The notes beneath the pieces are model-generated. The model had not been told where the DNA came from. It did not search any database and was given only the letters and a program-made list of their open reading frames with translations. Both the position numbers and the translations under genes were made by a program. A DNA stretch of 64,000 nt from Candidatus Thorarchaeota archaeon (lineage in GTDB: Archaea; Asgardarchaeota; Thorarchaeia; Thorarchaeales; Thorarchaeaceae). The stretch is taken from the NCBI GenBank assembly GCA_963726195.1, contig CAVSBO010000005.1, forward strand, positions 128,001 through 192,000. Direction: 5' to 3'. Below are positions 5,586 through 12,676 of this stretch, in pieces (position 1 is the stretch's first letter; each line of letters starts with the position of its first letter).

Positions 5586-7329
5586 TCAACGCCCTTCTCG
5601 CGATTCGTTCTCCCGAATCGAGAAGTTGACGAAGACTGTCGCACCATTCTTCATCTCATCGAAATACGCTCGGTCATAAGGCCCGAAAAGATCAGGGAAC
5701 CCTGAGTTGATTGCCCACTCAATCCAGGACCAAGCACTTTCCTGTCCGGCCTTTTCTTCCGCGAATTCACCGAATGACCAGCTCAAGTAGCGCTCAAGTT
5801 CAAATCTGGTATCTAGAAGAGTGCTGGCTTCCTCTTCTGATGAATGAGACGCAGAGTCCTTGACCCTCGCTAGATCCTCGTTCAATGTCTCTCTCGTCGT
5901 TGCTACTAGCTCAGCCAGATCCCACAATGCTGAATTCATTTCGTCGAACCTGCGCTTGCTGCGAAGCTTGGCCATCTTGCCTAGCATGCTGAAAAGCCTT
6001 GGCGAATGCATAACTGAGAGTCCGCGTGCTTTCAAAGCGCCTGCGAGTCTGTTCGTTCCAGGGAGTGTTGAAATAGGCTCGTGGGTATTTTACGAATAAC
6101 GGGAATGGCACATCTAGAGCATTGGCGACGGGTATGACTTGCGCGTAGTAAGCTGCCTCCCCTATCCCTCCAATGTGAACTATGATAGGCAAAACGAAAT
6201 CCATGATTAGTTGTCTGGAATCAACACGGGGTGATAGGCATTCGGCGACGTCGCTTAGATCCGGTTCGTCGGCATCTAGTTCGATGTTAATCTTGTCCCC
6301 ACACGAGGGACATTGACCCGTGAGCGCAACCCTTGAACCCTGCTCGGAGTGTTGTAGTTCTGTCCTGCTTGAATGGCAGGGGGCTTTCTGGCACTCATAA
6401 TAGAACGGAACGTATTCTTCGCCTCTAGAACCCATCCCTGGCCTGAAACCATTCTCGGTGATGAGATTAGTGGCTGCTTCATGTGCCTGCAAGAATATGG
6501 TCCTGTTGGGACGGGCGAGAAGGAATTCCATACCTGCGGTCATCAAGTGTCTGATTCGAGAATCGGAAGCGGGCACGATGGGAATTCCGAGGTCCTGTTC
6601 AATATTGAACAGCCGAGCGAGGATTCTTTCCGACCATTCCCCTAGCATACGAGAGTTGACGAATGCAGACCGTGCGACAGCAAGACAGTGCTCGAGTCGT
6701 TCTTGGAAGAGAGTATGGGCGTTCCCGGACAGAGCTTTGAAGAGCGGTCTATATCCTGCCCGGATTCCTTCCTCAACCTGCGAGTACCAATCGTGATCGG
6801 GTAGGGGTATCGCATGAACTGGAGCGTATTCATACCCCTCTGGGACCGGCAGACTGGCAAGATTGCCAGCCTGTCCTTCAGCTGGCGTTCTTGTGTTCGT
6901 CAGCTCCGGCTGAACGATATCGTAGTCTGCTACGAAGAAGACCGGTGATAGGTCGATGCTTTTCTCGTGTCCGAGTGCAGATATCTTTCTAGCTGAAGCA
7001 GCCTTGTTGAGTATGTAGCAGGGCCCGCCCATCGCAACACTCTGGTGCGATGCTTCGACCACGCCCTCCGGAATGCGCTCAATAGCTGCCTTCACCTTCG
7101 GCGTGAGACCGTTCAGGTGCTGGTTCAGGTCTTCGAGTGCCCTTCGAAGCATCTCCATACGTTCGTTGGTATGCCATCCCATTTTGGCATATGTACTTAC
7201 AATGGCTGGTGCCCTTTCTCCGAAGCCGCCCATTGTCACTACTGGATTATCATAGAGCTTCTCTGCAAGCTCTGCAAATCCCCCTTTCCAGATGAAGTCT
7301 TGATAGACCTCCACAATGCCGAGGTCCAT
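5586..7329 (-). CDS. bshC: BshC-like bacillithiol cysteine-adding enzyme; one +1 frameshift near 6050
   Basis: HQSVAMGGPCYILNK, PVFFVADYD and LSPRVDSRQLIMDFVLPIIVHIGGIGEAAYYAQ resemble BshC blocks. Removing one base near 6051 joins ORF 5911-7329 to ORF 5586-6035 (WNE-RLAGALKARG). Adjacent to bshA. Confidence 0.75.
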
Positions 7330-7344
7330 TTCTACTGTCCTCCT

Positions 7345-8517
7345 TCAGCTGGCGATGGCCTCTTCGAATACCTTCTCGTACATGGGCACGATTTTGTCCG
7401 GTGAGAAGTTCTCAACTACTCTCTTCCTCCCGGCCTTGGCAAGCCTGCTGCGAAGGGAATCATTCTCGAGGATTCTGATAACCTCTTGAGCATACTCATC
7501 AGGCTCGAAGGTCTTTGTAACAATCCCATCCACTCCAGAGCGTACTAGTTCCGGCACGCCGCCAGCTGGAGTAGTAACAACTGGTACCTGACATGCCATC
7601 GATTCCAGCAAGACGAGAGGCATACCTTCCAACGTTGAGTTGAGGAGGAATGCGTCCGCGCCGCATAGAATCTCCTGTATATTCGACCTCACACCTAGGA
7701 GGTGAACGTTGTCGCAGAGACCCAGTTTCTCCATTTTTCTTTCGACATCAACCCTGCTGGGTCCTTCTCCAACTACTATTAGATGGGTCTTGGGTAGCTC
7801 ATTAACCACTGTTCGAATGATATCGATGAGATCGGTCACGCGTTTCACTTCTCTGAAGTTAGAAATATGAAGGAGCACCTTCTCATCAGGATCGATGGTC
7901 TTCGTGCTCTCTCCCTTGTTTATCCCGACACAGCCGCTCTCAACTTTGATGCGGCAGCCTTCCATGGGATGAAATTGCTGAATATCCACGAAATTCGGGA
8001 TTACGTGGATTTCTCTTTCTATGCCAAGTGCGTCATACGCCTTTTGCTGGAGGAATCTTGAAACCGCGGTGACCGCGTTCGCTTTCTCTACTGTGAATTG
8101 GACTACCGGTTTGTAGGCCGGGTCGGGCCCAAGTGTGTGAACGTCTGAACCATGCAGAGTGATCACGTAAGGTAGCCCTGCGATTTCTCTTGCCATGTAT
8201 GCCGCCATTGCATGAGGGATTGCATAATGCGCGTGCACCATGTCGAGTTTGGCGTCGTTTGCTACCTTCAGGATCTTCGAAGTCAACGGCATTGTGTAAG
8301 GAGATCCTATGCCGCTGAAGAGTGGATAGTCGAGCCTGTCAACCAAGTCAACGTAAATGCCCGGGGGCTGTTCCCACATTAGTGCGAACGGACGTTGATA
8401 CGTGATGAAGTGTATGATGTGTCCTCGCTGAGTGAGATGCTCTCCGAGTCGAGTTGCTAGATGGCCCGATCCACCGACTCCAGGAAACAGGTTCACACCT
8501 ATGCGCAAATTGCTCAC
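7345..8517 (-). CDS. bshA: N-acetyl-alpha-D-glucosaminyl L-malate synthase (GT4)
   Basis: BshA-typical GGSGHLATRLG, HFITYQRPF, HAHYAIPHA, TLHGSDV and HISNFREVKR motifs, plus the GT4 motif EGMPLVLLE. Confidence 0.88.
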   Translation of the reverse strand: MSNLRIGVNLFPGVGGSGHLATRLGEHLTQRGHIIHFITYQRPFALMWEQPPGIYVDLVDRLDYPLFSGIGSPYTMPLTSKILKVANDAKLDMVHAHYAIPHAMAAYMAREIAGLPYVITLHGSDVHTLGPDPAYKPVVQFTVEKANAVTAVSRFLQQKAYDALGIEREIHVIPNFVDIQQFHPMEGCRIKVESGCVGINKGESTKTIDPDEKVLLHISNFREVKRVTDLIDIIRTVVNELPKTHLIVVGEGPSRVDVERKMEKLGLCDNVHLLGVRSNIQEILCGADAFLLNSTLEGMPLVLLESMACQVPVVTTPAGGVPELVRSGVDGIVTKTFEPDEYAQEVIRILENDSLRSRLAKAGRKRVVENFSPDKIVPMYEKVFEEAIAS

Positions 8518-8666
8518 TCAGTATTGGAAACTCGTTCTTTCCCTTTAAGCGAACTGGTCCAGCAAAGCGGATTTCCAAGAGCACTGTGTCGCTTTCGTGA
8601 ATGCGGACGATCCGTAGATCCAGATAGGTCCAAACCTTGATTAGCCACCCTCTGTGAGTTCCAATC

Positions 8667-9335
8667 ATGACTCCCTCCGACCATGCCTCAATCCTTGTGG
8701 TAGTGGCACATCCTGATGATGAATGCATTGGCGCAGGTGGCACAATCAGGAAGCATGTTGACCAAGGTTTCGAGACCGATGTCTTGTGTTTGACGGGCAA
8801 TGAAGTGCGAAACGCGGAGCTCAAGGCCGCATGCGAGGTACTTGGAGTTAGGGAGGTGTACACGAACGAGCGTGACGACTTTGCCATTGACTGGCCCCTT
8901 GAGCAGGAGATAGTGTCAGCCATACTGAAGTCTCGGCCGTCAGTCATCATCACACATTCTGTGAAGGACTACAACCGAAATCACGTTCGATGCTCGAAGC
9001 TTGTCGCCGATGCCGTCGAATGGGCGTCACACGTGACAATGTACGAGGATGCTGTTCGCGTTGACAGGGTCTATTGCATGGAGATCAACAGCCTGCATTC
9101 ACGACCTAACGTTCTCGTTGATGTGTCCAATTCCTTCGATGCGGCCATGGATGCCCTTCGAAAGCACAGCTCGCAGCTTGAGAAGGCTGATGGCTTCTAC
9201 TCACGATTCTATGATGCAAGAACCCGTCTGCGTGGAGTTCAGGCTGCGTGCGATAGAGCTGAAGCCTTTACGGTCTCGTTTCCTTTTCACGCAGGACCGT
9301 TCTATCGAAGAAATGCGGTCGAGAGTCTGATCTAG
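8667..9335 (+). CDS. bshB: PIG-L/LmbE-family N-acetylglucosaminyl deacetylase (BshB-like)
   Basis: VVAHPDDE and HSSQ motifs; divergent from bshA-bshC. The second metal motif is divergent (NRNH in place of HxDH). Confidence 0.7.
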   Translation: MTPSDHASILVVVAHPDDECIGAGGTIRKHVDQGFETDVLCLTGNEVRNAELKAACEVLGVREVYTNERDDFAIDWPLEQEIVSAILKSRPSVIITHSVKDYNRNHVRCSKLVADAVEWASHVTMYEDAVRVDRVYCMEINSLHSRPNVLVDVSNSFDAAMDALRKHSSQLEKADGFYSRFYDARTRLRGVQAACDRAEAFTVSFPFHAGPFYRRNAVESLI

Positions 9336-9347
9336 AAGCTTGAACTA

Positions 9348-9771
9348 CTACCCGGGACCTTCAGCCCCACCTGTGTCTCCCTTCTTCCTTCTTGCAGAAA
9401 GAAGTGACTTCAGTTCTCCCATGAGGTTGCCTCCTGCACCAGCAGGTGCGGCAGCGGGCAGGCGGTGGCGTTGCGGCTTTGGCAGCTGCGCCCTTTGACG
9501 CAGGAGCTGGTCCACCTTGAGCGGGAGCCGATGGACCCGCAGTCTTGGCGCTTGAAATCTTACTGTCGAGTTGGCTGATACGTGCTTCGAGTCCTCCGAC
9601 CTTGGTCTGAAGCTCTGAGACCGTGGTCTGCAGTTCACCGATCACACCAACCAATTTCATCGTGACGGTAGAGACGACTTCTCCGAGCTCACGGATCTTC
9701 TCATCATTGGGGTCCTTTAGTGCCCACTCGAAGTCTTCCATGATTCCCAATTCGTCTTTGTCGTCAGCCAT
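9348..9771 (-). CDS. Coiled-coil, Ala/Pro-rich protein with a C-terminal Ena/VASP FAB-like motif; one +1 frameshift at ~9456-9458
   Basis: Starts MADDKDEL with a heptad coil (VIGELQTTVSELQTKVGGLEARISQLDSKIS). Deleting one C from GCCC gives ...KAATPPPAAAAPAGAGGNLMGELKSLLSARRKKGDTGGAEGPG*. Confidence 0.65.
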
Positions 9772-9888
9772 GGCACAGACCACTTCTTCAAGTTTCAATG
9801 ACTTGGTTTTGCTATAAACATTACCTGCATATTGAATCATCTACTTGGTACGTGAAGCAAATCGATACCAAAAGGTCCTAGGTTCCGT

Positions 9889-11265
9889 CTAGCGAGTTCG
9901 TTGAATGGCTTCCGCGACGACAGCCTTTGCCCGCTTCATGGTTTCTTCCGCTTGGCGGGGCGTGCGTGCTTCACAAGTGATCCTTACCACGGGCTCCGTG
10001 CCTGAGGGCCTAACTAGTACCCAACCTTCCTTGAGTGATATGCCTAGGCCATCCACCGTCACGACGTCAACAGTATCTCTGAATGCTTCGGGCAGTCTTT
10101 TCGTTACGGCTTGCATCACAGCCGGCTTCAATTCGTCTTGGCACTGCAGCTTCGTTTTCAGAAGAGGATACAGAGGTATTTCCCGAATGAGGTTTCCGAA
10201 CCCCTGTCCTGTGTGTGCCATGAGCTCGAGAATCTTGCATGCAGCAAGGAATGGCTCTGGTGCCAAATGAAACTCGGGAAGAATGAAGACACCACATGCC
10301 TCACCACCCATGGCCGCCTTGGTCTCATTCACCTTCATGGATACTTGTATGTCTCCTACCGGAGTTCTGATTGTGCGTCCCCCCGCCTTTTCCACCGTTT
10401 CATCCAAGACCCGTGAACTGTCGACTGTTGTGACTATCGTCTTGCTGCTCGATGTCTTCAAGGTCTCTCTCGCCAAGAGTGCTATTGTTCTGTCTCCTCT
10501 CACAACTTCACCGGTCTCCGTCACGAAAACAACTCTGTCAGAATCGCCGTCATGAGCTATGCCGAGATTCGCCCCTGTCTCTGGAACCATCCGTGCGAGG
10601 TCTTTCAGCGTCTCTTCATCTGGTTCGGAGATTCGCCCTGGAAAGAACCCATCCGGCTGTCCATTGATTGTGATAACCTTGCATCCCAGTTCCCTCATGA
10701 GGTATGGTGTCATTGCGCATGCGGCGCCGTTGCCCGGATCGACAACCACTTTGTAGGCCCTTTTTCTGATTAGGTCCCCGTCGCATCTCGACATCACTGC
10801 TTCCATGTGTTCCGTTACTGCACTCTCGAGGGTTTCTTCGGCACCCAGCTGATTCCATGCCGCGACCTTGAACTCGCGAGAATCATAGAGATTCTCAACT
10901 CTTTCTTCTTCTTCCGGAGTGTAGCCCATGCTGTTTCGAGACCAAAACTTGACGCCCGTATACTCTGGGGGATTGTGAGACGCAGTGACCGTAACTCCAG
11001 CATCGTAGCCGTGACTCATTGCGACGAAAGCAAGCGTGGGAGTTGGCAACATGCCCGCCCTGACCACGTTTGTTCCAGTGGAAAGCAAACCAGCCGAGAA
11101 AGCATCAGCCACCATGCGTCCAGTCGTTCGCACGTCGTGCGCCAAGGCAACCGTCCCTCCATTGAGATACGTGCCAAGCGACTTGCCGAGATTCAGTGCC
11201 ATCGCGAGGTCAAACTCCGATCCGTAGACCTTCCTGACTCCGGTTGTGCCGAACAGCTTTCCCAA
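9889..11265 (-). CDS. glmM: Phosphoglucosamine mutase / phosphomannomutase (alpha-D-phosphohexomutase)
   Basis: LFGTTGVR, TASHNP (phosphoserine), DGDSDR (metal loop), GGEACG and RPSGTEP motifs. Confidence 0.88.
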   Translation of the reverse strand: MGKLFGTTGVRKVYGSEFDLAMALNLGKSLGTYLNGGTVALAHDVRTTGRMVADAFSAGLLSTGTNVVRAGMLPTPTLAFVAMSHGYDAGVTVTASHNPPEYTGVKFWSRNSMGYTPEEEERVENLYDSREFKVAAWNQLGAEETLESAVTEHMEAVMSRCDGDLIRKRAYKVVVDPGNGAACAMTPYLMRELGCKVITINGQPDGFFPGRISEPDEETLKDLARMVPETGANLGIAHDGDSDRVVFVTETGEVVRGDRTIALLARETLKTSSSKTIVTTVDSSRVLDETVEKAGGRTIRTPVGDIQVSMKVNETKAAMGGEACGVFILPEFHLAPEPFLAACKILELMAHTGQGFGNLIREIPLYPLLKTKLQCQDELKPAVMQAVTKRLPEAFRDTVDVVTVDGLGISLKEGWVLVRPSGTEPVVRITCEARTPRQAEETMKRAKAVVAEAIQRTR

Positions 11266-11434
11266 ACTGCTTTCCCGAATCGTTCCCAAGCGACACTGCA
11301 AAAAAACCTGCCTGCGGCTTCTTGGTGATGAATTTCGCCTGTGTTGCGCGAAAGCTTATTAGAAGCTAAGAATCCTAAGCGGTTTGAAAAAATCTCCGCG
11401 GCGTTCTGCATATCGTGAATCGGGGTTATCCGTG

Positions 11435-11995
11435 ATGAGTAGCACTTATGACCGACTGTACAAGATTGTGGTGCTCGGGGAGGGGGCAGTGGGCAAAACT
11501 GCGATTGTGACCCGATTCTCGCACGGCTTCTTCAGAACTGACTACAAGACGACGATTGGTTCTCAGTTTGCGGTGAAGAACTTAGACATCAAGACCAACG
11601 AGAACAGAAGACTGACTGTCAAGCTGCAGATCTGGGATGTGGCCGGCCAGTCGCGTTTTGCGATTCTTCGACCAATGTACTACCGAGGTGCAAGTGGCGG
11701 AGTTCTCGTATATGATGTGACTAGGCGTCGCACGTTCATCGTATTGCACGAGTGGCTCGATGAACTCCATAAAGCGATTAACAAGACTATACCTCTCGTA
11801 CTTGTCGCAAACAAGACCGATCTCACAGATCGCGTTGTTACGCCGGCTGAGGGCAGGGAATTTGCAGACAAGCATAGCCTGCCTTACGTAGAGTCCTCTG
11901 CAAAGACTGGCGAAGGTGTTATCGACATATTCGAACAGCTTGCGAAGACTCTTGCTGAGGAACACGAGCACGAAGACGAGTCCAATACATCATAA
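11435..11995 (+). CDS. Rab-like small GTPase
   Basis: G1 GEGAVGKT, G2 TIG, G3 WDVAGQ, G4 NKTD, G5 SAK; RabF-like KLQIW, YYRGA and LVYDVT; no C-terminal cysteine. Confidence 0.93.
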   Translation: MSSTYDRLYKIVVLGEGAVGKTAIVTRFSHGFFRTDYKTTIGSQFAVKNLDIKTNENRRLTVKLQIWDVAGQSRFAILRPMYYRGASGGVLVYDVTRRRTFIVLHEWLDELHKAINKTIPLVLVANKTDLTDRVVTPAEGREFADKHSLPYVESSAKTGEGVIDIFEQLAKTLAEEHEHEDESNTS

Positions 11996-12070
11996 CGCAC
12001 ATCCAGTTCTCAGTTCGTTTTGACTGCACAGTCAGGAATATCAGGCAATCTCCTCTGAGTGATTCCGAAC

Positions 12071-12676
12071 ATGACAAAACCTGACGAGTACTACGCTGCC
12101 AACGTAATCCCTCCGATTGCTTGGGCACTTGACCTGTACTTCAAGCAGGGCCATCGCCCTAAGGATGCACCTGTCGTCGAGATTTCGTTCCCTGCTGGAC
12201 AGCACAAAGAAGCACTTCGGACGCTGGGCAAGCACGAAATTGCGGTCTGGATTTCCAAACAGGAGGTTTTCGTTAGACCCCGATGCTCTTACGATAAGGA
12301 CTGCAAGTTCATGGGGCCGCGGATTGACGCTCGAGACAGGGAGGCTGTCAAGGCACTGGCGTGGGACAAGACGGACAAAACCAAGTTCTTCAAGACGATT
12401 CGCGACTGGCTACTTGAACTCAACCTGGACTTTACCACCCTGGTCAGGGCTCTGGTTACCGTGTGTGACAGAATGGTGACGATTCCTCTCACTACGCGGT
12501 ATGGCAAGACCTTTGACAAGTTCGACGATTACAGGCGCCACAAATGGCCCGAGGATGCGACACCGGATGACAAGCCGCGTCTTCTTGAAGAAGTGCTTTT
12601 CAGGGTTGCATTCTGGTTTCAGACAGCAGCTGATGTCGGGGCGCTGAAGAACGCTCAGGTCAATCGACACTCATAA
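12071..12676 (+). CDS. Hypothetical protein
   Basis: Clean ~200-aa ORF co-oriented between the Rab-like gene and the kinase; no motif recognised. Confidence 0.65.
   Translation: MTKPDEYYAANVIPPIAWALDLYFKQGHRPKDAPVVEISFPAGQHKEALRTLGKHEIAVWISKQEVFVRPRCSYDKDCKFMGPRIDARDREAVKALAWDKTDKTKFFKTIRDWLLELNLDFTTLVRALVTVCDRMVTIPLTTRYGKTFDKFDDYRRHKWPEDATPDDKPRLLEEVLFRVAFWFQTAADVGALKNAQVNRHS

What the first reader, a model, noticed from the sequence alone, without database searches (positions are those of the whole stretch)
9348..9771. Hidden Ena/VASP-like actin-binding candidate: coiled coil, Pro/Ala linker, FAB-like motif
Seen: the ORF track splits this gene. Removing one C at ~9457 gives a ~140-aa protein with an N-terminal heptad coil, a PSAPAQGGPAP...TPPPAAAAP linker and C-terminal GGNLMGELKSLLSARRKK. 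Known: the Ena/VASP EVH2 F-actin-binding segment reads approximately [17 protein letters not shown] (from memory), and Asgard archaea have actin and profilin. Inference: an oligomeric actin bundler or elongator with a possible profilin-docking linker, i.e. a eukaryotic-signature protein that automated annotation would miss.
Basis: partly seen in the sequence, partly recalled or inferred. Interest (0 to 1): 0.85.

Follow-up and report, generated by a model that had tools for sequence, protein, structure and literature searches.

The report
Asgard coiled-coil adaptor, VASP-like tail
A one-base assembly error hides a real 140-residue Thorarchaeota protein from an undescribed Asgard-only family (pairing helix, floppy arm, near-invariant end helix); it looks like animal VASP, but no test here shows that it is related to VASP or binds actin.

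Summary
On the minus strand, the frame from ATG 9771 runs into an out-of-frame Cys/Trp-rich tail. Dropping one base of the GGG run at 9456-9458 gives a 140-aa protein. Contigs of four public runs from two studies lack that base. A public gene call is 100% identical to the repaired protein.

The protein belongs to an unnamed family that carries only Asgard labels where a label exists. It was found in 162 of 190 Asgard genomes that are at least 90% complete. Members have an acidic/aromatic N-helix, a heptad coiled coil, a disordered linker and a C-terminal helix with an invariant E-L-K.

The whole module is homologous to the C-terminal tail of Arf/RagA-like GTPases in one Lokiarchaeial family (hhalign 98.7%).

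Membership of Ena/VASP or WH2 fails:
- No Pfam match to either.
- The coil is at the wrong end.
- The likeness to the VASP FAB motif scores at chance level and rests on Thor-specific residues.
- The window's linker has no polyproline tract, although Lokiarchaeial homologues do.

In L. ossiferum the inferred orthologue is well expressed. It is not among the proteins enriched with Lokiactin in a published co-immunoprecipitation.

My best reading is an oligomeric tether with a docking helix whose partner is unknown. I put actin at about 0.2. This scan has found the same family before in other genomes.

The parts
9348..9771 (-). Whole gene as it stands in the window: 140 codons plus stop, with one surplus base. 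ATG at 9771-9769, TAG at 9350-9348.
9456..9458 (.). GGG run (CCC on the coding strand) that holds one base too many. It causes the frameshift after residue 105.
   Evidence: one base left out at 9456 in contigs of 4 runs; a public gene call equals the repaired protein
9673..9753 (-). Conserved N-terminal motif, residues 7-33 (ELGIMEDFEWALKDPNDEKIRELGEVV): an acidic/aromatic helix followed by the DPT/N-EEK-L-x-L-G entry into the coil.
   Evidence: the same DPTxxKVEGLG motif opens the GTPase tail
9556..9699 (-). Heptad coiled coil, residues 25-72, with Val/Ile at a positions and Leu at d positions. The oligomer state is unknown.
   Evidence: Read directly from the sequence; AF2 gives one long helix 21-76 with pLDDT >90; the PDB profile hits are coiled coils, mostly trimeric
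9435..9555 (-). Disordered Pro/Ala/Gly/Ser linker, residues 73-112. It contains the surplus base. It has one PPP and no polyproline tract.
   Evidence: pLDDT <50; variable in length and sequence between orthologues
9381..9434 (-). C-terminal 'ELK helix', GGNLMGELKSLLSARRKK (residues 113-130): an amphipathic, basic helix with E119-L120-K121 invariant across the family.
9813..9818 (-). TTTATA box 41 nt upstream of ATG 9771, a likely own promoter. The upstream in-frame ATG at 9840 lies before it.
   Evidence: Read from the sequence; this is inference only

Best explanation
The window carries a one-base insertion in a real, intact gene, most likely an assembly error. The gene encodes a 140-aa member of an undescribed Asgard-specific family.

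Proposed mechanism:
- The N-terminal helix and heptad coil make a parallel oligomer (dimer or trimer).
- Each chain then projects a 35-60-residue disordered arm. The arm is Ala/Pro/Gly-rich in Thorarchaeota and true polyproline in Lokiarchaeia.
- Each arm ends in a near-invariant amphipathic basic helix, [IL]-[MQ]-x-E-L-K-x-L-[FL]-x-x-[KR]-[KR], which docks onto a conserved partner.

The same module (DPT entry motif, coil, arm, ELK helix) forms the C-terminal tail of 409-437-aa Arf/RagA-like GTPases in one Lokiarchaeial family. The free-standing protein is therefore best read as a multivalent tether or adaptor that uses the same docking site as those GTPase tails, in membrane or cytoskeleton organisation.

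Shown here: the indel, the family, its architecture, its conservation, the homology to the GTPase tail, and protein-level expression of the inferred L. ossiferum orthologue.

Inferred: oligomerisation, the docking role of the helix, and the identity of the partner. My rough odds for the partner are unknown protein 0.35, membrane 0.25, actin 0.2.
For: Indel.

Family and conservation:
- Alignments of 20 and 30 members have ELK invariant.
- 54 clusters at 90% identity, all annotated 'hypothetical'. The taxon labels are Thor, Frey, Jord, Loki and Promethearchaeia, plus one 73-aa 'Bathyarchaeota' fragment, P0057, that is identical to the start of the Frey-type protein P0017.
- Dozens of 100-195-aa clusters at 50% identity match the whole profile in one stretch.
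- 162/190 Asgard genomes of at least 90% completeness have a match.
- The motif is single-copy in this genome.

Architecture: AF2.

GTPase tail homology:
- Motif hits at the C-termini of 409-437-aa ORFs.
- Those proteins carry Pfam Arf and Gtr1_RagA domains.
- hhalign gives probability 98.7%, E 2.7e-16, over 109 columns end to end.

Selection on the arm: polyPro tracts (PPPPP once to three times) occur in loci of 25-39% GC (f9 25-30%).

Expression: GNAMCCOK_02219, the inferred L. ossiferum orthologue, was detected in 16/16 proteomes with mean log2 18.47.
Against: No partner was identified.
- Neighbouring genes give no functional clue. In Thor they are bshC/bshA-like, PIG-L, glmM and a Rab-like GTPase. 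In Lokiarchaeia they are an Elf1-like gene, a helical 206-aa unknown, radical SAM and an eRF1-like gene.
- The GTPase fusion was found only in family f9 (63/63). It was not found in 15 Thor genomes, in this genome, or in G213/G335. A shared partner is therefore an extrapolation for Thorarchaeota.
- AF2 of the fusion gives low confidence for the tail and shows no docking.
- Coiled-coil and low-complexity composition can inflate profile scores.
Confidence: 0.55

Rival explanations
1. Actin regulator. The ELK helix binds the hydrophobic groove of Asgard actin, as a WH2 motif, the VASP FAB motif or the arcadin-2 C-terminal helix do. The coil makes the protein multivalent. In Lokiarchaeia the polyproline arm recruits profilin-actin, which would give an elongation, bundling or nucleation factor.
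For: - The layout of coil, polyPro and basic amphipathic end helix matches actin-assembly factors.
- Lokiarchaeial members carry canonical xPPPPP tracts against a 25-39% GC background.
- The helix fits the WH2 helix pattern R-x-x-[IL]-[ML]-x-x-[IL] followed by a basic cluster.
- The Thor tail is 12/19 identical to VASP FAB by my own count of the ungapped pairing, using the FAB sequence.
- This genome has an actin (445 bits) and gelsolin-domain genes.
- There is a precedent for a C-terminal helix docking into an archaeal actin groove: arcadin-2 (PMC5173319).
- No VASP, formin or WH2-only factor is described for Asgard archaea in the papers read.
Against: - FAB scores at chance level, and the FAB-like residues are Thor-specific.
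- WH2 is not among the Pfam families hit by 3 or more of 30 members, and there is no VASP_tetra hit.
- The PDB motif search returns nothing related to actin.
- No actin-related neighbours were found.
- No gelsolin or profilin fusions appear among the top 150 hits of the exhaustive search. The only fusions are to Arf/RagA-like GTPases.
- Loki and Odin profilins are reported not to bind polyproline (PMC8410842).
- The inferred L. ossiferum orthologue is abundant, yet it is absent from the rows with log2 ratio above 1.1 in the Lokiactin Co-IP, and from the held part of that sheet.
Confidence: 0.2
2. Membrane tether. The ELK helix is an amphipathic, basic membrane-targeting helix at the end of a flexible arm. 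This would be the archaeal counterpart of the hypervariable-region anchor of small GTPases. The free-standing coiled-coil protein would be a di- or trivalent membrane-binding scaffold.
For: - The helix sits at the extreme C-terminus after a flexible linker in Arf-like GTPases, which carry HhH-like N-terminal domains rather than an Arf-type N-terminus.
- Net charge is +2 to +4 and the Heliquest-type D factor is 1.0-1.6, the 'possible to likely lipid-binding' range.
- The authors of the Co-IP study state that it is biased against membrane-associated proteins, which would explain the protein's absence there.
Against: - The hydrophobic moment is only 0.28-0.39 and mean hydrophobicity is 0.11-0.24.
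- An invariant Glu and a second acidic residue lie in the helix core. Strict E-L-K conservation across deep lineages looks more like a specific protein contact.
Confidence: 0.25
3. The frameshift is real in this strain. It would then be a pseudogene or a truncated variant, or it would be decoded by programmed frameshifting.
For: The window sequence as given has the extra base. Both frames stay open to within 13 nt of each other.
Against: - All four public runs that cover the site lack the base, including contigs otherwise identical to the window.
- The identical intact protein is on record.
- The site is a homopolymer run.
- An earlier, unchecked note reports three more frameshifts in a neighbouring gene of this assembly.
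Confidence: 0.05

Closest known systems
Ena/VASP EVH2 region (human VASP: GAB 223-239, FAB 259-278, tetramerising coil 343-380; PMC10340426)
   Same: It combines an oligomerising coiled coil, a Pro-rich flexible region and a short basic amphipathic helix. The Thor tail GGxLMGELKxLLxARRKK resembles FAB [20 protein letters not shown].
   Different: - No EVH1, no GAB and no Pfam VASP_tetra hit.
- The coil is N-terminal and left-handed-heptad-like, not a C-terminal right-handed tetramer.
- The FAB likeness is at chance level and confined to Thorarchaeota.
- The family's invariant E-L-K aligns with E-M-N in FAB.
- It is not a member of this family.
WH2 / beta-thymosin motif (Pfam PF02205)
   Same: A short amphipathic helix with the R-x-x-[IL]-[ML]-x-x-[IL] pattern, followed by basic residues and preceded by polyproline in Lokiarchaeia.
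   Different: WH2 was not among the Pfam families that 3 or more members matched. The LKK[TV] element is replaced by F/L-x-x-[KR]-[KR]. The predicted helix is about 18 residues long, longer than a WH2 helix. Actin binding is untested.
C-terminal tails of Lokiarchaeial Arf/RagA-like GTPases (409-437 aa, annotated 'ADP-ribosylation factor-like protein')
   Same: The whole module is homologous: DPTxxK[LV]xxLG entry, coil, linker and the R-x-x-[VI]-[LM]-x-E-L-K-x-[LI]-F-x-K helix (hhalign 98.7%).
   Different: The window's protein has no G domain and no HhH-like N-terminal region. The fusion was found only in one Lokiarchaeial family and not in Thorarchaeota searched here.
Arcadin-2 of Pyrobaculum (crenactin regulator, PDB 5LY3; PMC5173319) and ParR-ParM
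   Same: A small protein whose extreme C-terminal helix is the sole docking element for a partner. In those cases the docking site is the hydrophobic groove of an actin-fold protein.
   Different: No sequence comparison with arcadin-2 or ParR was made here. Arcadin-2 is encoded in the arcade cluster next to crenactin, whereas this gene is not linked to actin genes. Its partner is unknown.
CCDC53/WASHC3 (Pfam PF10152) and other small coiled-coil subunits (BLOC1_2, BORCS6)
   Same: A small protein with an N-terminal coil followed by a low-complexity arm. The best single Pfam hit of any member is CCDC53 (23.5 bits on L138; 21 bits on the GTPase-tail fragment P0301).
   Different: Both hits are below the curated cut-off of 24.6 bits. 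They cover the coil plus low-complexity sequence, so they are likely compositional. I treat this as a lead only.

Membership tests
Ena/VASP | N-terminal EVH1 domain | tested here: not met
   Pfam scans of P0003 and of 30 family members show no EVH1/WH1 hit.
Ena/VASP | Proline-rich region with profilin-type xPPPPP tracts | tested here: not met
   The window protein has a single PPP and its close orthologue's linker is 11% Pro. Lokiarchaeial homologues do carry 1-3 PPPPP tracts.
Ena/VASP | G-actin-binding site (WH2-like, KLRK) | tested here: not met
   There is no second motif. VASP GAB scores below 0 bits against the tail models.
Ena/VASP | FAB motif ([20 protein letters not shown]) | tested here: inconclusive
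   FAB scores 7.6 bits against the Thor model and 4.7 bits against the pan-Asgard model. At least 8 chance stretches in 5.8 M residues score 7.6 bits or more.
Ena/VASP | C-terminal tetramerisation coiled coil (PF08776) | tested here: not met
   The coil is N-terminal, and there is no VASP_tetra hit.
WH2 (PF02205) | Match to the family model | tested here: not met
   No WH2 hit for P0003 at E<=10. WH2 is not among the 25 families matched by 3 or more of 30 members.
WH2 (PF02205) | Amphipathic helix followed by LKK[TV] | tested here: inconclusive
   The helix pattern fits. LKK[TV] is replaced by x-[KR]-[KR]-[KR], or by LRR/MKK in the Frey and Loki forms.
WH2 (PF02205) | Binds actin in the subdomain 1/3 groove | not testable with these tools
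   No complex prediction or assay is available. The published Lokiactin Co-IP does not list the inferred orthologue among enriched proteins.
Unnamed Asgard coiled-coil / linker / ELK-helix family | N-terminal acidic-aromatic helix plus the DP[TN]xEK-L-x-L-G entry motif | tested here: met
Unnamed Asgard coiled-coil / linker / ELK-helix family | C-terminal helix with invariant E-L-K 9-21 residues from the end | tested here: met
Arf/RagA-like GTPase with ELK tail | Tail module homologous end to end | tested here: met
   hhalign 98.7%, E 2.7e-16, 109 columns
Arf/RagA-like GTPase with ELK tail | Arf-type G domain | tested here: not met
   The 140-aa protein has no G domain. No such fusion was found in this genome or in 15 Thor genomes.
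CCDC53/WASHC3 (PF10152) | Score above the curated cut-off | tested here: not met
   The best scores are 23.5 and 21 bits against a cut-off of 24.6. P0003 itself has no hit.

The most novel reading that the evidence does not exclude
The family is a missing Asgard actin-assembly factor. A coiled-coil oligomer would use its invariant end helix to grip the actin groove. In Lokiarchaeia its polyproline arm would feed profilin-actin. The same helix on Arf-like GTPases would couple a GTP switch directly to actin, a pre-eukaryotic forerunner of WASP/VASP-type regulation.
Probability: 0.17. Interest if true: 0.9.

Novelty: new variant of a known kind. Interest (0 to 1): 0.55.

Why it matters
The papers read here name only profilins and gelsolins as Asgard actin regulators. 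How Asgard cells nucleate, elongate or anchor filaments remains open.

This family is a concrete, cheap target for pull-down, co-sedimentation and liposome assays. It is small, abundant (in the inferred L. ossiferum orthologue), Asgard-restricted and strongly conserved. It has a eukaryote-like 'coil, proline arm, docking helix' layout, and its module is also wired to Arf-like GTPases.

Whatever the partner is (actin, membrane or a GTPase-pathway protein), identifying it would add a new component to the cell biology of the closest archaeal relatives of eukaryotes.

For annotation, the finding shows that this assembly contains indel errors that split real genes.

Tried and rejected
I called ORFs myself instead.
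- The PDB profile search with the whole family returned only generic, mostly trimeric coiled coils. The search with the tail motif alone returned nothing meaningful.
- The ESM Atlas search gave no usable feature hit. Its structure hits are single-helix noise.
- AF2 of the GTPase fusion gave tail pLDDT of 36-57 and no docking information. I did not run a fold search on what are essentially single helices.
- CCDC53/BLOC1_2/BORCS6 lead: below cut-offs and probably compositional.
- Lead from earlier notes that the module is fused to gelsolin or profilin: not reproduced. The 'longer' word search found none, and the exhaustive search's long single-stretch hits are all Arf/RagA-like GTPases.
- Idea that the 'Arf GTPase' co-precipitated with Lokiactin carries the ELK tail: rejected. 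That protein is 38.1 kDa, matching a 329-aa tail-less Arf-like gene at 5.472 Mb of G335. The ELK motif occurs only once in that genome.
- The apparently pan-Asgard distribution of the GTPase fusion, suggested by NCBI labels (Thor, Odin, Heimdall, Hermod): rejected. The tails are nearly identical to each other, and genome searches find the fusion only in family f9.
- MIM1 (Vps4-binding) reading of the helix: the LxxRLxxL[KR] spacing fits only part of the Frey/Jord variant and is not conserved. This is by inspection, with the MIM1 consensus recalled from memory.
- Synteny as a functional clue in Thor: the whole +/-6 kb block is conserved, so it is uninformative.

Full report
**1. The observation**

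The gene is on the minus strand. From ATG 9771 the frame stays open to TGA 9361, giving 136 aa. After ...AATPPPA it turns into a Cys/Trp-rich tail that looks out of frame. The +1 frame ends ...AAAPAGAGGNLMGELKSLLSARRKKGDTGGAEGPG, with TAG at 9348. Reading GCCC (9459-9456) as one step joins the two frames into a 140-aa protein, P0003.

Three independent results show that the joined frame is the real one.
- Orthologues in 24/24 genomes of the same family and 1/1 of the same order match residues 1 to about 135 in a single open frame.
- Contigs of four public runs (peat and freshwater sediment, two studies) all leave out one base at 9456. Two of those contigs have no other difference from the window.
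- A gene product called on another public contig (P0022) is 140/140 identical to P0003.

The site is a GGG run. An earlier, unchecked note reports three more frameshifts in a nearby gene of this assembly. I conclude that this is an assembly indel, not a pseudogene.

A TTTATA box at 9818-9813 lies 41 nt before ATG 9771. The upstream in-frame ATG at 9840 lies before that box. So 9771 is the likely start and the gene probably has its own promoter. This is inference from the sequence.

**2. What it is**

Organism. The 72 related loci in named genomes are almost all 'Candidatus Thorarchaeota' MAGs. The genome is 2.9 Mb and 88.9% complete. It has an actin (445 bits) and gelsolin-domain genes. The Pfam profilin model found nothing, but it also found nothing in any control genome, so that result is uninformative.

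Conservation within Thorarchaeota. The alignment shows four parts:
- an acidic/aromatic N-terminal helix and the motif EEFEWALKDPTEEKLRxLGEVV;
- a regular heptad coil;
- a linker that varies in length and sequence;
- a nearly invariant end, GGG[LM]MGELKxLLAARR[KR]K.

AlphaFold2 on the close orthologue gives H3-18, H21-76 (pLDDT >90), disorder 77-115 and H116-133. In the coil the a positions are Val/Ile and the d positions are Leu, which I read directly from the sequence. PDB profile hits are generic coiled coils, mostly trimeric. The oligomer state is therefore open.

The family beyond Thorarchaeota.
- A Thor-only profile already hits 203/301 Asgard genomes.
- A pan-Asgard profile hits 162/190 genomes of at least 90% completeness. 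This includes the Lokiarchaeia families f9 (87/89) and f24 (5/5), the small Odin-like genomes f3 (4/4), and f7, f16 and f19.
- The same profile finds few or none in f22 (1/11), f5 (2/7), f27 (0/3) and f14 (0/2).
- In the protein collections the family is annotated only as 'hypothetical protein'. The labels are Thor, Frey, Jord, Loki and Promethearchaeia. The one outside label is a 73-aa 'Bathyarchaeota' fragment (P0057) that is identical to the N-terminus of the Frey-type protein P0017.
- The exhaustive search finds dozens of clusters at 50% identity, 100-195 aa long, that match the whole profile in one stretch.

Across all lineages only E-L-K is invariant. The consensus tail is P-x-[SN]-P-x-S-[LA]-R-x-x-[ILM]-[MQ]-x-E-L-K-x-L-F-x-[KR]-[RLM]-[RK].

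The linker. It is Ala/Pro/Gly-rich in Thorarchaeota. In Lokiarchaeia it carries canonical polyproline tracts, for example GAPPPPPGAPPPPPG, with three tracts in the 152-aa copy of genome G335. These loci are only 25-39% GC (f9 25-30%), which argues for selection on the tracts. Other Loki-labelled members have no proline at all in the arm (P0055, P0056). Polyproline is therefore lineage-specific, not a defining feature.

**3. The module is also the tail of Arf-like GTPases**

Searching Lokiarchaeial family f9 with the tail motif found weaker matches at the extreme C-terminus of 409-437-aa ORFs, besides the single free-standing copy per genome. These ORFs are Arf/Gtr1-RagA-like GTPases with an HhH-like N-terminal region (Pfam). 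After the G domain they read DPTVxKVEGLGKTLEETLNAVIRLSES...coil...short linker...R-L-x-V-L-N-E-L-K-D-L-F-S-K-R-K-x-L-D-L.

A profile-profile comparison of the free-standing family against these tails gives probability 98.7%, E 2.7e-16. It aligns 109 columns, from the DPT entry motif to the ELK helix.

The fusion is present in 63/63 f9 genomes. It was not found in this genome, in 15 Thor genomes, or in G213/G335 of family f24. NCBI labels these 412-aa proteins Thor, Odin, Heimdall or Hermod. That conflicts with their near-identical tails and with my genome searches, so I treat those labels as unreliable. Among the long single-stretch hits of the exhaustive search, the only fused domains are these GTPases. 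There are no gelsolin or profilin fusions.

**4. Tests of the VASP / WH2 / actin idea**

Ungapped, the Thor tail shares 12/19 residues with it by my own count.

The likeness does not hold up statistically.
- FAB scores only 7.6 bits against the Thor tail model and 4.7 bits against the pan-Asgard model.
- In the six-frame ORFs of this genome (5.8 M residues), at least 8 unrelated stretches score 7.6-11 bits. A proteome-wide search would therefore return FAB-level matches by chance.
- The residues that make the tail look like FAB (Gly run, LM, LLxARR) are Thor-specific. The invariant L and K of E-L-K align with M and N of FAB.

No family model supports membership. No member hits the Pfam EVH1/WH1 or VASP_tetra models, and WH2 is not among the families matched by 3 or more of 30 members. 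The helix does fit the WH2 helix pattern R-x-x-[IL]-[ML]-x-x-[IL] and is followed by a basic cluster. This is a resemblance, not a test.

Genomic context offers no actin link. In Thor the neighbours are bshC/bshA-like genes, a PIG-L deacetylase, glmM and a Rab-like GTPase, and the whole block is conserved. In Lokiarchaeia they are an Elf1-like gene, a helical 206-aa unknown, a radical-SAM gene and an eRF1-like gene.

The papers read name only profilins and gelsolins as Asgard actin-binding proteins. They report that Loki and Odin profilins do not bind polyproline, while one Heimdall and one Thor profilin bind it weakly.

**5. A published experiment**

A preprint on L. ossiferum (doi 10.1101/2025.11.30.690169) gives proteomes and a Lokiactin co-immunoprecipitation. 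I first identified genome G335 (6,035,313 bp, one contig) as that organism, using four anchors:
- actin at 3.925 Mb matches tag 03343;
- the 2DGel genes at 3.040 Mb and 4.784 Mb match tags 02589 and 04136;
- a 329-aa Arf-like gene at 5.472 Mb has a computed mass of 38.12 kDa, against 38.1 kDa for tag 04696.

The family member lies at 2,628,799-2,629,257 (152 aa, 16.14 kDa). Its upstream neighbour is an Elf1-like gene of 24.03 kDa. That fits GNAMCCOK_02218 (24.01 kDa), with the same 0.02 kDa offset seen for the Arf protein. The family member is therefore GNAMCCOK_02219. This is an inference, at about 85% confidence.

That tag is quantified in all 16 proteomes, with mean log2 18.47 (actin is 21.69). 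It is absent from the held part of the Co-IP sheet, and from all rows with log2 ratio above 1.1.

The co-precipitated 'Arf' has no ELK tail, and the motif occurs once in that genome.

This counts against a stable actin complex, but only weakly. The stored sheet is cut. Weak WH2-type contacts can be lost in a Co-IP. The authors themselves note a bias against membrane-associated proteins.

**6. Mechanism and odds**

The best-supported reading is an oligomeric tether. The coil pairs the chains, the disordered arms give reach, and the near-invariant end helix docks on a conserved partner. The same helix ends the Arf-like GTPases of f9.

The helix has net charge +2 to +4, a hydrophobic moment of 0.28-0.39 and a D factor of 1.0-1.6. 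Membrane binding is therefore possible. However, an invariant Glu and strict E-L-K conservation fit a protein contact better.

My odds for the partner are unidentified protein 0.35, membrane 0.25, actin 0.2. AF2 of the GTPase fusion was too uncertain in the tail to show self-docking.

**7. Comparison, novelty and score**

The protein works like known 'coil plus flexible arm plus docking helix' adaptors: VASP, WASP-family proteins, arcadin-2 (PMC5173319) and ParR. It is not a member of any of them.

It is homologous to the tail of a Lokiarchaeial Arf-like GTPase family. I found no paper that describes the family.

This scan has met the family repeatedly in other genomes. Those notes gave me the GTPase-tail lead, which I verified. 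They also gave a gelsolin-fusion lead, which I could not reproduce. Two of them state that the FAB match is 'far better than chance', which my control contradicts.

Interest is 0.55. The target is real, conserved, abundant and testable, and it bears on Asgard cell organisation. Its headline actin reading remains unproven and slightly disfavoured.

Noticed in passing
window 5586-9335: bshC-like, bshA-like GT4 and a divergent PIG-L deacetylase lie next to glmM (9889-11301). The whole block, including the gene studied here, is syntenic in most of 72 Thorarchaeota loci.
   Followed up: partly
window 11384-12676: A Rab-like small GTPase (203 aa, acidic Cys-free tail) is followed by a co-oriented 201-aa gene of unknown function. 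Both are conserved in 44-51 of 72 Thor loci.
   Followed up: no
L131:1748-2368 (+) and equivalents in f9 loci L130-L136, L144: An all-helical 206-aa protein without a Pfam match (P0058) sits directly upstream of the family gene and is co-oriented with it in Lokiarchaeial family f9. In the f24 loci L128, L129, L142, L143 and in L. ossiferum (L180) the upstream gene is an Elf1-like zinc-ribbon protein of about 205 aa. In L126 and L127 the P0058-type gene lies downstream instead.
   Followed up: partly
L. ossiferum Co-IP table (doi 10.1101/2025.11.30.690169, Supplementary Table 2): GNAMCCOK_02218 (24.01 kDa) is enriched with Lokiactin (log2 1.36, adjusted p 0.034). I infer that it is the Elf1-like gene next to the family member. 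A 4.41-kDa protein, GNAMCCOK_03085, is enriched at log2 2.66 with 87% sequence coverage.
   Followed up: no
P0080, P0087, P0097, P0142, P0109 and others: Near-identical 412-aa Arf-like proteins carry NCBI labels Thor-, Odin-, Heimdall-, Hermod- and Lokiarchaeota. Genome searches place them only in one Lokiarchaeial family, so these are probably mislabelled MAGs.
   Followed up: partly
L140:85-447 and 599-973 (G297); also G240:C93:50697-51535 and G329:C3:14494-15322: Tandem duplicates of the family gene occur in some lineages (f30, f28).
   Followed up: no
P0332 (491 aa): One long protein has the family's N-terminal coil module at residues 19-100, followed by an unrelated 390-aa region with no Pfam match and no ELK helix.
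   Followed up: no
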